A stretch of 48,041 nt of DNA, from the IMG/VR virus record IMGVR_UViG_3300037483_000592; one strand, given 5' to 3'. This document shows, piece by piece, positions 40,133-40,943 of this stretch. The position numbers and the translations under genes are program-made. Origin of the DNA: a virus. How positions within the stretch are numbered: the stretch's first letter is position 1; every line of letters begins with the position of its first letter. The notes beneath the pieces were generated by a model. It was given only the letters and a program-made list of their open reading frames with translations. It searched no databases and was not told where the DNA came from.

Positions 40133-40427
40133 CCTTTCCCTCCTTCGGGCTCAGGTCCTTGTCCGACTTCCAGATCCATCCGCTGTCCCAAACCTGCTTG
40201 AAGGACCAGCGGTCATTGCCGTTTTGCTTGGAAGGTTTCCCGGGCAGAAGCCAGGGCTTGTTGTAGAAGGCCGATACGGGGATGTCCTTGAGGCTGGCCA
40301 GCTCCGCGCGGCTGTACCACATCTTCGCCGGGGAAACCTTCTGCGCCAGATCCACCACCAGCCGGGAGAGCTCCTGTACGGCTCGCTCGAGCCGCTCTAC
40401 TTCGGGCAGGTGGATGGACTGATTCAT
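40035..40427 (-). CDS. Hypothetical early protein; its 3' ~98 nt overlap the zinc-finger gene out of frame
   Basis: The protein is 130 aa. Third-position GC is high down to ~40140 and then falls. Confidence 0.55.
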   Translation of the reverse strand: MNQSIHLPEVERLERAVQELSRLVVDLAQKVSPAKMWYSRAELASLKDIPVSAFYNKPWLLPGKPSKQNGNDRWSFKQVWDSGWIWKSDKDLSPKEGKGDGTETGIAAGNVQPPAPVQRVRRQRQGAHTG

Positions 40428-40600
40428 GGCTTTGCAGCCTCGAATCGATTGGCCGCCTCTTCGAGGAAAAGAGCGATCTGCTGGCGAAGGGACCGACGCT
40501 CTGCGTCTGCAACTCTGCGCAGCCTCTCATGCACGGAACTGGGGAGGATCACGTTGATCGATTTCGCTTTCTCTGGCCGCTTCAAAGCCACTTTGTTCAT
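40424..40600 (-). CDS. Hidden 58-aa ribbon-helix-helix protein (Cro-like first gene of the leftward operon)
   Basis: The ORF is not in the track: MNKVALKRPEKAKSINVILPSSVHERLRRVADAERRSLRQQIALFLEEAANRFEAAKP. It has an ATGA overlap with the next gene. The ATG lies 6 nt after a -10 element. Confidence 0.65.
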   Translation of the reverse strand: MNKVALKRPEKAKSINVILPSSVHERLRRVADAERRSLRQQIALFLEEAANRFEAAKP

Positions 40601-40601
40601 G

Positions 40602-40629
40602 GGTCTATATTAGACCTAATATAGGTCTA
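40602..40629. promoter_or_regulatory. Operator cluster: three GGTCTA/TAGACC half-sites forming two overlapping palindromes
   Basis: The half-sites are GGTCTA (40602-07), TAGACC (40611-16) and GGTCTA (40624-29). A degenerate GGTTTA lies at 40663-68. Confidence 0.6.
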
Positions 40630-40635
40630 TGTCAA
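40607..40635 (-). promoter_or_regulatory. Leftward sigma70-like promoter TTGACA-17-TAATAT (would give a near-leaderless transcript)
   Basis: The minus-strand -35 is the complement of 40630-40635 and the -10 is the complement of 40607-40612. The spacer is 17 nt. Confidence 0.55.
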
Positions 40636-40643
40636 TACTTTTT

Positions 40644-40672
40644 TTGCACTTTTTCGCCGATAGGTTTATAAT
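40644..40672 (+). promoter_or_regulatory. Rightward sigma70-like promoter TTGCAC-17-TATAAT
   Basis: The -35 is at 40644-49 and the -10 at 40667-72. The SD AGGAG/GAGGTG precedes ATG 40689. Confidence 0.55.
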
Positions 40673-40688
40673 AGGAGTGAGGTGATAT

Positions 40689-40943
40689 ATGGGCAGGTTC
40701 AGCGACAAGAAGCCGGAAGATCCAAAAGAAATGAGTATCAAGCTACCGGGTCTACTGCATCAGAGGTTAAAGAGAATGGCCGAAACAGAGGGAAGATCTC
40801 TGAAGGAACAGATCCCCCGTTGCCTTGAAGAGGCTATTACCCGATGGGAAGCAATAAAAGGAATTACAGGGGGGGCACCTATCGGGGTTTCAGAGAATGC
40901 TTCTCCCGTCAGGCTGCGGAAGATGCCGGGTCATTCATCTTGA
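40689..40943 (+). CDS. Ribbon-helix-helix protein (lysogeny repressor candidate)
   Basis: The protein is 84 aa and contains MSIKLPGLLHQRLKRMAETEGRSLKEQIPRCLEEAI. It is co-oriented with the integrase. Confidence 0.7.
   Translation: MGRFSDKKPEDPKEMSIKLPGLLHQRLKRMAETEGRSLKEQIPRCLEEAITRWEAIKGITGGAPIGVSENASPVRLRKMPGHSS

What the first reader, a model, noticed from the sequence alone, without database searches (positions are those of the whole stretch)
40424..40943. Compact genetic switch: two divergent RHH genes (one missing from the ORF track), back-to-back promoters and 3+1 GGTCTA half-sites
The 88-nt AT-rich gap 40601-40688 holds a leftward TTGACA-17-TAATAT promoter and a rightward TTGCAC-17-TATAAT promoter. 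Three perfect half-sites (GGTCTA, TAGACC, GGTCTA) form two overlapping palindromes across the leftward -10/spacer/start region. A degenerate copy (GGTTTA) overlaps the rightward -10.

The leftward gene is an unannotated 58-aa RHH protein whose ATG lies 6 nt after the -10. Its transcript would be near-leaderless, as lambda cI is from PRM. The rightward gene is an 84-aa RHH co-transcribed towards int. An all-RHH cI/cro-equivalent switch with this operator layout is worth testing.
Basis: partly seen in the sequence, partly recalled or inferred. Interest (0 to 1): 0.7.

Follow-up and report, generated by a model that had tools for sequence, protein, structure and literature searches.

The report
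Two-RHH lysis/lysogeny switch of a phage
A complete temperate phage genome, probably from a spirochaete host, appears to decide between killing and lysogeny with two related ribbon-helix-helix repressors made from back-to-back promoters; this recombines two textbook phage designs, is conserved in a few relatives, and has not been tested in the lab.

Summary

New findings:
- The two ribbon-helix-helix (RHH) proteins are paralogs, 46% identical.
- Six other uncultivated phage loci carry the same gene pair and the same promoter pair. The -35 hexamers are always 8 bp apart.
- The GGTCTA half-sites read better as three 8-bp boxes (TAGRYCTA) at an 11-bp period. They fill the whole space from the -35 to +1 of the leftward promoter. 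All seven loci share this layout.
- The ATG sits exactly 6 nt after the -10 in 5 of 7 loci, so the leaderless start is conserved.
- The window is a whole circular phage genome of about 47.9 kb. The leftward operon is the early lytic operon (Erf, exonuclease-like genes and onwards).
- The rightward unit is RHH84, then attP (the 3' part of tRNA-Gly(UCC) of Spirochaetota), then int.

I therefore read RHH84 as the likely maintenance repressor, in the CI/Mnt position. RHH58 is the leaderless early autoregulator, in the Cro/Arc position. Integration would cut int off from the rightward promoter.

No protein-DNA binding was tested. Which paralog binds which box is unknown, and the fourth site is not conserved.

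The closest known system is P22 immI (Mnt/Arc), but here the module sits where a primary switch sits. Verdict: new variant of a known kind, moderate interest.

The parts
40424..40600 (-). E-type RHH gene (RHH58). It is the first gene of the early lytic operon, has a leaderless ATG, and its stop overlaps the next gene's start (ATGA).
   Evidence: Pfam RHH_5 at 29.1 bits against a 26-bit cut-off. Orthologs in 6 loci are 61-76% identical over the core. The ATG lies 6 nt after the -10.
40630..40635 (-). -35 hexamer TTGACA of the leftward (early) promoter P_E.
   Evidence: TTGACA or TTGACG sits at the same position in all 7 loci.
40607..40612 (-). -10 hexamer TAATAT of P_E. It is made of the last 2 nt of box B, the 3-nt spacer and the first nt of box C. 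The predicted start is at 40600, the A of the ATG.
   Evidence: The transcription start is inferred, not measured.
40622..40629 (.). Operator box A (TAGGTCTA on the + strand), directly abutting the P_E -35.
   Evidence: One of only two perfect TAGRYCTA copies in 48 kb. A box occupies this position in all 7 loci.
40611..40618 (.). Operator box B (TAGACCTA on the + strand). It is the exact reverse complement of box A, lies 11 bp from it, and overlaps the upstream edge of the -10.
40600..40607 (.). Operator box C (TGGGTCTA on the + strand, 7 of 8). It lies 11 bp from box B, and its last base is the A of the start codon, at +1.
40636..40643 (.). 8-bp A/T-rich spacer between the two -35 hexamers. 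Its length is constant in all 7 loci.
40644..40649 (+). -35 hexamer TTGCAC of the rightward promoter P_lys.
   Evidence: TTGCAY followed by 17 nt is conserved in 7 loci. The scan reported the neighbouring register TTTGCA with 18 nt.
40667..40672 (+). -10 hexamer TATAAT of P_lys. The predicted start is near 40679-40680, about 80 bp from the P_E start.
   Evidence: The transcription start is inferred.
40661..40668 (.). Possible fourth box D (TAGGTTTA, 7 of 8). It overlaps the P_lys -10 in the same register as box B does at P_E.
   Evidence: Counterparts exist only in L007 and L012 and are not locus-specific. Weak.
40689..40943 (+). L-type RHH gene (RHH84), with a Shine-Dalgarno sequence (GGAG/GAGGTG). 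It is the candidate maintenance repressor and has a disordered C-terminal tail.
41128..41170 (+). attP core, 43 nt identical to the 3' part of tRNA-Gly(UCC) genes of Spirochaetota MAGs.
   Evidence: A contig of the same phage from another sample (L001) breaks inside it.
41268..42452 (+). Tyrosine integrase, downstream of P_lys/RHH84 only while the genome is not integrated.
   Evidence: Pfam Phage_integrase E=5.6e-11 and PHROG 1. No terminator-like site lies on the + strand between 40943 and 41268.
42442..43167 (+). ORF241, which overlaps the end of int. Function unknown. It travels with int in phages that carry other switch modules.
38326..40427 (-). Early genes behind RHH58: a 130-aa ORF, a 61-aa zinc-ribbon ORF, an Erf-type annealing protein, and a 225-aa ORF with a weak PHROG exonuclease match.

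Best explanation
This is the primary lysis/lysogeny switch of a temperate phage of about 47.9 kb. It is built from a duplicated ribbon-helix-helix repressor.

Leftward unit. P_E is a near-consensus promoter that starts transcription at the A of the RHH58 start codon. It drives a leaderless mRNA for RHH58 and, by translational coupling, the early recombination and replication genes, and probably the rest of the leftward-reading genome.

Rightward unit. P_lys is set back-to-back with P_E. The -35 hexamers are 8 bp apart and the predicted starts about 80 bp apart. P_lys makes RHH84 and, on the unintegrated circle only, reads through attP into int.

Operator. Three 8-bp boxes with an 11-bp period fill the 30 bp from the P_E -35 to +1. 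An array of RHH dimers on one face of the DNA would therefore exclude RNA polymerase from P_E.

Roles. RHH84 is the only regulator gene outside the early transcription unit. I infer that it occupies these boxes in the lysogen, in the role of CI or Mnt. RHH58 is made first from P_E. I infer that it feeds back on the same or overlapping boxes, and perhaps on the weaker box at the P_lys -10, in the role of Cro or Arc.

Integration. Integration at tRNA-Gly separates int from P_lys.

Shown: the genes, the RHH family assignment, the paralogy, the promoter and box architecture and its conservation, the attP site and the genome context.

Inferred: transcription starts, DNA binding, which paralog binds where, and bistability.
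For: Proteins
- The pair is 46% identical.
- They fall into two clades. E-type members average 65% identity, L-type 46%, and E against L 38%. The duplication therefore predates these phages.

Architecture in 7 loci (W, L002, L003, L007, L011, L012, L013)
- All have TTGACA/G, then 8+3+8+3+8 bp of boxes, then +1.
- All have TTGCAY-17 on the other strand, with exactly 8 bp between the -35 hexamers.

Boxes
- Boxes co-vary within a locus: A equals the reverse complement of C in L011 (8/8) and L013 (7/8); A equals the reverse complement of B in W (8/8); B equals C in L012 (8/8).
- Box sequence differs between loci along with the beta-strand residues.
- Perfect TAGRYCTA occurs only here in 48 kb.

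Leaderless start
- The ATG lies 6 nt after the -10 in 5 of 7 loci, and it is always ATG.
- The two exceptions carry an inserted Shine-Dalgarno leader.

Genome context
- The window is a circular complete genome with a 127-bp terminal repeat.
- Terminase, portal-like, protease, endolysin-like and Erf genes are all on the minus strand.
- The only plus-strand genes are RHH84, int and ORF241.
- No HTH/S24 CI-like protein turned up among about 50 ORFs scanned.
- In relatives the L-type gene heads the int or accessory-gene side, and the E-type heads the early side.

attP.
Against: - No experiment exists. DNA binding, transcription starts and lysogeny itself are all inferred.
- The assignment of RHH84 as maintenance repressor rests on gene position only.
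- Beta-strand residues of both paralogs change together with the boxes, so the data cannot say which one reads them.
- RHH84 has no recognisable induction domain, and its tail is predicted disordered.
- The fourth box, needed for a mutual-repression loop, is missing in 4 of 7 loci.
- One L-type gene (L008) stands alone behind a P_E-like promoter with no divergent partner.
- ORF241 and several small ORFs have no assigned function, so another regulator cannot be excluded.
- The family is tiny, about 10 representative clusters among 1.84 billion, so comparative power is low.
Confidence: 0.6

Rival explanations
1. The roles are reversed, following the lambda analogy. The leaderless RHH58 is the maintenance repressor, expressed as cI is from PRM. 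RHH84 is the Cro-like lytic regulator, co-expressed with int.
For: Leaderless translation is the hallmark of lambda cI from PRM (textbook knowledge). The boxes lie over RHH58's own promoter, which is compatible with autoregulation.
Against: RHH58's stop codon overlaps the start of the next gene. Erf and exonuclease-like genes, and the whole lytic gene set, follow on the same strand with no terminator. RHH58 therefore cannot be made without transcribing the lytic genes. The three boxes would shut off its own synthesis. RHH84 lies on the int and accessory-gene side in all relatives.
Confidence: 0.08
2. This is a secondary immunity region like P22 immI. RHH58 (Arc-like) and RHH84 (Mnt-like) would control an antirepressor, for example the 130-aa ORF. 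A different, unrecognised primary repressor would sit elsewhere in the genome, for example ORF241.
For: The gene pair closely parallels Arc (53 aa) and Mnt (82 aa), which are divergent and about 40% related (PMC7549136; PMC8022706). The 130-aa ORF and ORF241 have no family match.
Against: The controlled operon runs straight into Erf, exonuclease-like and replication genes rather than a lone ant gene. No HTH/S24 or other CI-like protein was found in about 50 ORFs. The 130-aa ORF is not conserved with the module, since the L011 neighbour is unrelated. ORF241 stays with int in phages whose switch modules are different, so it is not matched to these operators.
Confidence: 0.15
3. Only one of the two proteins regulates the switch. 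The other has a different job, such as an accessory factor for integration or excision next to attP, or an orphan antitoxin-like RHH. The repeats would then serve mainly as promoter elements.
For: RHH84's best Pfam matches are antitoxin-type RHH families below threshold (FitA-like, HicB). Box edges do build the -10 hexamers (TA+NNN+T), and box B of most relatives carries an extended -10 TG.
Against: No toxin gene follows RHH84. The two clades are co-inherited as a divergent pair in 7 loci. Box centres vary between loci while the promoter hexamers stay constant, and boxes co-vary in pairs within a locus. Plain promoter sequence would not be expected to behave this way.
Confidence: 0.12

Closest known systems
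Phage P22 immI region (mnt / arc-ant; Mnt and Arc repressors)
   Same: Both have two paralogous RHH repressors of very similar sizes (53 and 82 aa in P22, 58 and 84 aa here). Both transcribe them divergently from closely set promoters. In both, the short one is the first gene of the operon whose promoter carries the operators, and the long one is made from the opposite promoter (PMC7549136, PMC8022706; operator details from memory of Sauer, Susskind and co-workers). Sequence and fold searches put the new proteins nearest Arc, Mnt and AmrZ.
   Different: P22 immI is a secondary immunity region that controls one antirepressor gene beside a classical c2/cro region. Here the module sits at the junction of the early lytic operon and int, and no other repressor was found. 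RHH84 lacks a predicted helical tetramerisation tail like Mnt's. The operator is three phased 8-bp boxes rather than separate Arc and Mnt operators. The short gene is leaderless. Membership in Pfam Arc is borderline.
Phage lambda immunity region (cI-PRM / OR1-3 / PR-cro)
   Same: Both have back-to-back divergent promoters with starts about 80 bp apart. Both have a short array of repeated operators over the lytic promoter, with a possible weaker one on the lysogenic promoter. One of the two regulator mRNAs is leaderless. The lytic-side regulator is the first gene of the early operon.
   Different: The proteins are RHH, not HTH. There is no S24 autocleavage domain. All three strong boxes lie inside the lytic promoter. 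The leaderless gene is the cro-position gene, not the cI-position gene. The two regulators are paralogs of each other.
F55 of the archaeal virus SSV1
   Same: F55 is an RHH protein that maintains lysogeny by binding tandem repeats (ATAGATAG) over early promoters and its own promoter. Occupancy depends on concentration (PMC5569661).
   Different: It is an archaeal system with a single RHH regulator. It has no paralogous divergent partner and uses archaeal promoters.
Integration-dependent immunity of mycobacteriophage BPs-type phages
   Same: attP lies inside the lysogeny transcription unit, so integration rewires expression (from memory of Broussard et al. 2013).
   Different: In those phages attP lies inside the repressor gene and truncates the protein. 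Here the core lies 185 nt after the RHH84 stop codon and only separates int from the promoter.

Membership tests
Ribbon-helix-helix (Arc/MetJ/CopG superfamily) DNA-binding proteins | Sequence profile match to an RHH family above the curated threshold | tested here: met
   RHH58 matches PF07878 RHH_5 at 29.1 bits against a 26-bit cut-off. RHH84 itself is below threshold (FitA-like 21.7 against 27), but its ortholog P0004 passes PF03869 Arc at 23.9 against 20.4.
Ribbon-helix-helix (Arc/MetJ/CopG superfamily) DNA-binding proteins | N-terminal strand followed by two helices | tested here: met
   The AF2 model of RHH84 has an extended N-terminus, helices at 21-34 and 38-59 with pLDDT about 90, and a disordered tail. 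Foldseek top hits are RHH proteins (Arc, CopG, AmrZ, MatP), but with non-significant E-values. The strand pairs only in a dimer, which was not modelled.
Ribbon-helix-helix (Arc/MetJ/CopG superfamily) DNA-binding proteins | Dimers bind repeated operator subsites through the beta-ribbon | not testable with these tools
   Only the repeated boxes at an 11-bp period are seen. Binding is not measured.
P22 immI-type Mnt/Arc module | Two paralogous RHH repressors encoded divergently from adjacent promoters | tested here: met
   46% identity over 57 residues. Divergent promoters. Two conserved clades.
P22 immI-type Mnt/Arc module | The controlled operon encodes an antirepressor (ant) and acts beside a primary immC repressor | tested here: not met
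   The downstream genes are a 130-aa orphan, a zinc-ribbon ORF, Erf and exonuclease-like ORFs. No CI/C2-like HTH or S24 protein was found in about 50 ORFs scanned.
P22 immI-type Mnt/Arc module | The long paralog has a helical C-terminal tetramerisation domain (Mnt) | tested here: not met
   Residues 60-84 of RHH84 have no predicted secondary structure and pLDDT of about 48-56. Tails are variable among orthologs.
Lambda-type CI/Cro switch | Back-to-back PRM/PR-like promoters with a shared operator array | tested here: inconclusive
   The promoter geometry is met by prediction, with starts about 80 bp apart. All three strong boxes lie in P_E, and the P_lys box is weak and not conserved.
Lambda-type CI/Cro switch | HTH repressors; CI with a RecA-dependent S24 autocleavage domain | tested here: not met
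   Both proteins are RHH. No S24 or HTH_3 match was found.
Integration-dependent immunity (BPs-type) | attP core lies inside the repressor coding sequence | tested here: not met
   The core is at 41128-41170 and the RHH84 stop codon is at 40941-40943.

The most novel reading that the evidence does not exclude
A lambda-style bistable switch has been reinvented from a single duplicated RHH fold.
- Both paralogs would read the same phased three-box array, whose box edges themselves form the -10 hexamer, but with different occupancy orders.
- The lytic-side paralog is made from a strictly leaderless mRNA.
- int expression is wired to the lysogenic promoter only until integration at tRNA-Gly cuts the transcript.
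- The module moves as a cassette among spirochaete phages whose neighbouring genes are unrelated.
Probability: 0.35. Interest if true: 0.65.

Novelty: new variant of a known kind. Interest (0 to 1): 0.5.

Why it matters
If confirmed, this would be a minimal, fully defined lysis/lysogeny switch of about 520 bp made from two small paralogous RHH proteins.
- It would allow a direct comparison with the HTH-based lambda paradigm and with P22 Arc/Mnt, the classic model proteins for RHH folding and DNA recognition.
- The seven natural variants, with different box sequences and different beta-strand residues, form a ready-made specificity series for RHH-DNA recognition. They could also supply orthogonal synthetic-biology parts.
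- It would be one of very few regulatory systems described for phages of free-living spirochaetes.
- The conserved leaderless start explains why gene callers miss or mis-start this gene.

Tried and rejected
- DNA similarity of 38000-43500 to 50,697 GenBank phages found no match.
- Rfam on 40400-41400 found nothing, not even the tRNA fragment. ARAGORN found no full tRNA in the window. The attP assignment therefore rests on the 43-nt identity to spirochaete tRNA-Gly genes.
- Word-indexed protein searches found almost nothing for either RHH. The full HMMER scan gave 10 representative clusters.
- Protein-pattern scans gave no genome hit and two distant low-GC metagenome hits without the paired architecture.
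- The L-type alignment was too divergent for locus scanning.
- A DNA-pattern scan for the conserved -35/-35 core in IMG/VR gave 65 hits. Only one was real, the contig already found, and the rest were chance.
- No prophage copies lie next to the 48 spirochaete tRNA-Gly loci, so the integrated form could not be examined.
- I looked for a terminator or structured RNA between RHH84 and attP and found none (z = 0.03).
- I tested whether the P_lys boxes match the locus's own P_E boxes better than those of other loci. They do not.
- The ORF241 structure prediction and fold search gave no informative match.
- Integration-dependent immunity was considered and rejected, because attP lies outside the repressor gene.
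- A toxin-antitoxin reading was rejected because there is no toxin partner.
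Full report
**1. What is in the sequence**

The 88-nt gap 40601-40688 has 34% G+C, against 55% for the surrounding kilobase and about 63% for most of the window. It is flanked by two divergent small ORFs.
- The leftward ORF, 40424-40600(-), encodes 58 aa. I call it RHH58. It passes the Pfam gathering score for RHH_5 (29.1 bits against 26).
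- The rightward ORF, 40689-40943(+), encodes 84 aa. I call it RHH84. Its RHH matches are below threshold: FitA-like RHH E=2e-4 and PHROG 'Arc-like repressor'.
- An ortholog of RHH84 passes the Pfam Arc threshold.
- AlphaFold gives RHH84 an extended N-terminus, two confident helices (21-34 and 38-59) and a disordered tail.
- The Foldseek list is made of RHH proteins (Arc, CopG, AmrZ, MatP), though at non-significant E-values, as expected for a 40-residue domain.
- A profile of the RHH84 family finds AmrZ, Arc and Mnt as the best solved structures, only weakly (E = 0.003-0.1).
- The two proteins are paralogs, 46% identical over 57 residues.

**2. Promoters and repeats**

- Leftward: TTGACA, 17 nt, TAATAT (40635..40607).
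- Rightward: a promoter ending in TATAAT at 40667-40672.

GGTCTA occurs at 40602-07(+), 40611-16(-) and 40624-29(+).

These are better described as three 8-bp boxes with 3-nt spacers, giving an 11-bp period. On the + strand they read TGGGTCTA (40600-07), TAGACCTA (40611-18) and TAGGTCTA (40622-29).
- Perfect TAGRYCTA occurs only twice in the 48-kb window, both times here.
- Four matches at one mismatch or better within 70 bp were reached in 2 of 20000 random placements.
- No composition-matched shuffle of the intergenic region (0 of 20000) reproduced four matches or three phased boxes.
- Together the boxes fill the 30 bp from the -35 to the A of the ATG.
- The -10 hexamer is itself built from the last two bases of box B, the spacer and the first base of box C.
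- The ATG lies 6 nt after the -10 with no Shine-Dalgarno sequence, so the predicted transcript is leaderless.

**3. Genome context**

The first 127 nt of the window equal the last 127 nt. The window is therefore a circular assembly of a complete genome of about 47.9 kb.
- Nearly all genes are on the minus strand, including terminase, a portal-like protein, a protease, an endolysin-like protein, a methyltransferase, HerA-like and ParB-like proteins, an HTH_36 protein, exonuclease-like ORFs and Erf.
- RHH58 is the first gene of this long leftward unit. Its stop codon overlaps the next start (ATGA).
- The only plus-strand genes are RHH84, a tyrosine integrase (41268-42452) and ORF241 (42442-43167).
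- Between RHH84 and int lies a 43-nt stretch (41128-41170) identical to the 3' part of tRNA-Gly(UCC) genes. All 48 exact matches for a 27-nt probe within it were in Spirochaetota MAGs, many labelled Alkalispirochaeta or carrying sediment-sample isolate names.
- The window itself has no complete tRNA.
- A contig of the same phage from another sample breaks inside this core.

So the window is the attP form of a temperate phage, and its host is probably a spirochaete.

I found no HTH/S24 CI-like protein in about 50 ORFs scanned. The only other small DNA-binding candidates are a weak NikA-like 80-aa ORF and a sigma-70 region-4-like 68-aa ORF near the packaging genes.

**4. Relatives**

The family is rare. 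The full HMMER scan of 1.84 billion representative proteins gave 10 clusters for RHH84. Context look-ups gave six further loci with the same divergent pair: L002, L003 (an IMG/VR contig), L007, L011, L012 and L013/L014.

Proteins
- They form two clades.
- The E-type (RHH58-like) averages 65% identity and carries the signature FLEEAAxRFE.
- The L-type (RHH84-like) averages 46% identity, carries the signatures SKKPP...CLE...RWE, and has variable C-terminal tails.
- E against L averages 38%.
- The duplication is therefore old and the pair is co-inherited.

DNA architecture, the same in all seven loci
- TTGACA/G, then box A, 3 nt, box B, 3 nt, box C.
- On the other strand, TTGCAY, 17 nt and a -10.
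- Exactly 8 bp between the two -35 hexamers.

Leaderless start
- In five loci the E-type ATG lies exactly 6 nt after the -10, and it is always ATG.
- In the other two loci an insert with a Shine-Dalgarno sequence separates them, and one of these uses GTG.
- Gene callers missed the E-type gene in L013 and started it at an internal ATG in L011 and L012.

Box behaviour
- Box sequences differ between loci: GACC/GGTC in the window, CACC/GGTG in L002, L003 and L013, CCCC/GGGG in L011, and GGGC in L012.
- Boxes change in pairs within a locus. A equals the reverse complement of C in L011 (8/8) and L013 (7/8). A equals the reverse complement of B in the window (8/8). B equals C in L012 (8/8).
- Position is conserved but orientation is not. 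This fits pseudo-palindromic subsites (TAG..CTA), each read by a symmetric RHH dimer.

Neighbouring genes
- The genes next to the module are not conserved. For example, the 130-aa ORFs of the window and of L011 are unrelated. The module behaves as a cassette.
- Phages that share int, ORF241 and Erf with the window carry other small-repressor pairs at the same place. L128 has an AbrB/MazE-like protein with a possibly RHH-like 70-aa protein that has no family match. L130 pairs a weak RHH_1 match with a small ORF that only looks RHH-like by eye. L132 pairs a weak RHH_1 match with an uncalled ORF that looks RHH-like by eye.

**5. How it most likely works**

Shown: the architecture and its conservation.

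Inferred:
- P_E fires a leaderless early transcript.
- Three RHH dimers on one DNA face, at 11-bp phasing, would cover the region from the -35 edge to +1 and exclude RNA polymerase.
- RHH58 cannot be made without transcribing the lytic genes, and RHH84 is the only regulator outside that unit. RHH84 is therefore the likely maintenance repressor (CI or Mnt position). RHH58 is the early negative-feedback regulator (Cro or Arc position).
- On the circular genome P_lys can read through attP into int, since no terminator lies between them. After integration int is cut off from P_lys.
- The weaker box over the P_lys -10 (40661-68) could allow autoregulation or Cro-like shut-off. It has counterparts only in L007 and L012, and these are not locus-specific, so I treat it as unproven.
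- Which paralog reads which box cannot be decided. Beta-strand residues of both clades change with the boxes.
- The induction mechanism is unknown.

**6. Comparison with known systems**

P22 immI is the closest in architecture. Arc (53 aa) and Mnt (82 aa) are homologous RHH repressors, about 40% related. Arc negatively regulates its own synthesis and that of the antirepressor, and Mnt blocks both in the lysogen (PMC7549136; PMC8022706). That the two genes are divergently transcribed, with arc first in the ant operon, I take from memory. The differences are:
- immI controls only an antirepressor, beside a classical immC region.
- Here the module sits at the junction of the early operon and int, and no other repressor was found.
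- RHH84 lacks an Mnt-like helical tail.
- The operator is a phased three-box array.
- The short gene is leaderless.

Lambda is the closest in position and in promoter geometry, but its proteins are HTH and its leaderless gene is cI, not cro.

SSV1 F55 shows that an RHH protein can act as a CI-like lysogeny keeper on tandem repeats, in an archaeal virus (PMC5569661).

Full-text searches found no paper describing a primary phage switch made of two RHH proteins. These searches cover only open-access literature.

**7. Verdict**

The feature is a new variant of a known kind, not a new principle. Interest is moderate. The case is clean, conserved, experimentally tractable and from an under-studied host group, but every functional step still needs an experiment.

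Noticed in passing
window 1-127 and 47915-48041: The two ends carry an exact 127-bp direct repeat, the signature of a circular assembly. The window is a complete phage genome of about 47.9 kb in the attP form.
   Followed up: yes
window 41128-41170; L080-L127: The 43-nt attP core is identical to the 3' part of tRNA-Gly(UCC). All 48 exact hits for a 27-nt probe within it are Spirochaetota MAGs (Alkalispirochaeta and relatives). Several of those contigs end right at the tRNA, which hints at variable integration there.
   Followed up: partly
L003 3536-3913(-); L012 1764-2147(+) (P0006): Two L-type RHH proteins carry an extra C-terminal domain of about 70 aa ending in ...KHFGEIAVEAGFITQATLDDYLD. 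From memory this resembles the T2SSE_N/MshEN-type motif, so it may be a sensor domain on the repressor. It has no Pfam match.
   Followed up: partly
window 40874-40943 (RHH84 residues 62-84) and P0004: The RHH84 tail is predicted disordered, but its end (RLRKMPGHSS) resembles that of ortholog P0004 (RQRKVPGDSP). It could be a short linear motif, such as a degradation or partner-binding tag.
   Followed up: no
window 42442-43167(+): ORF241 overlaps the end of int. It has 38 homologs and always sits next to int, even in phages with different switch modules. Its predicted fold is mostly helical with a small beta-sheet (pLDDT 78), and it has no PDB or Pfam match.
   Followed up: partly
L128 3578-4099; L130 3806-4487; L132 about 2700-3319: Sister phages with the same int, ORF241 and Erf backbone carry different small-repressor pairs at the same junction. 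L128 has an AbrB/MazE-like protein, an unassigned 70-aa protein that looks RHH-like by eye, and a 14-bp palindrome TATAGCATGCTATA in the early promoter. L130 has a weak RHH_1 match opposite a small RHH-like ORF. L132 has a weak RHH_1 match opposite an uncalled ORF that looks RHH-like. The switch cassettes are exchanged mosaically.
   Followed up: partly
L008 1560-1882 (also L009, L010): An L-type RHH gene stands alone behind a P_E-like promoter (TTGACA ... TAGTGC-CATAAT) with no divergent E-type partner. The pair is therefore not obligatory.
   Followed up: partly
window 25229-25435(-) and 35660-35902(-): A 68-aa sigma-70 region-4-like HTH protein lies upstream of the packaging genes and may be a late-gene activator. 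An 80-aa ORF in the early region has a weak NikA-like RHH match.
   Followed up: no
window 40749-40754; 44367-44387: A fourth perfect GGTCTA lies inside the RHH84 coding sequence. Two one-mismatch TAGRYCTA copies lie 13 bp apart inside a minus-strand gene. Both are probably chance.
   Followed up: no
P0005: A 1175-aa protein matched RHH84 in 13 stretches, but Pfam calls it repeated Phage_min_cap2. This is probably a repeat or frame artefact of the database entry.
   Followed up: no
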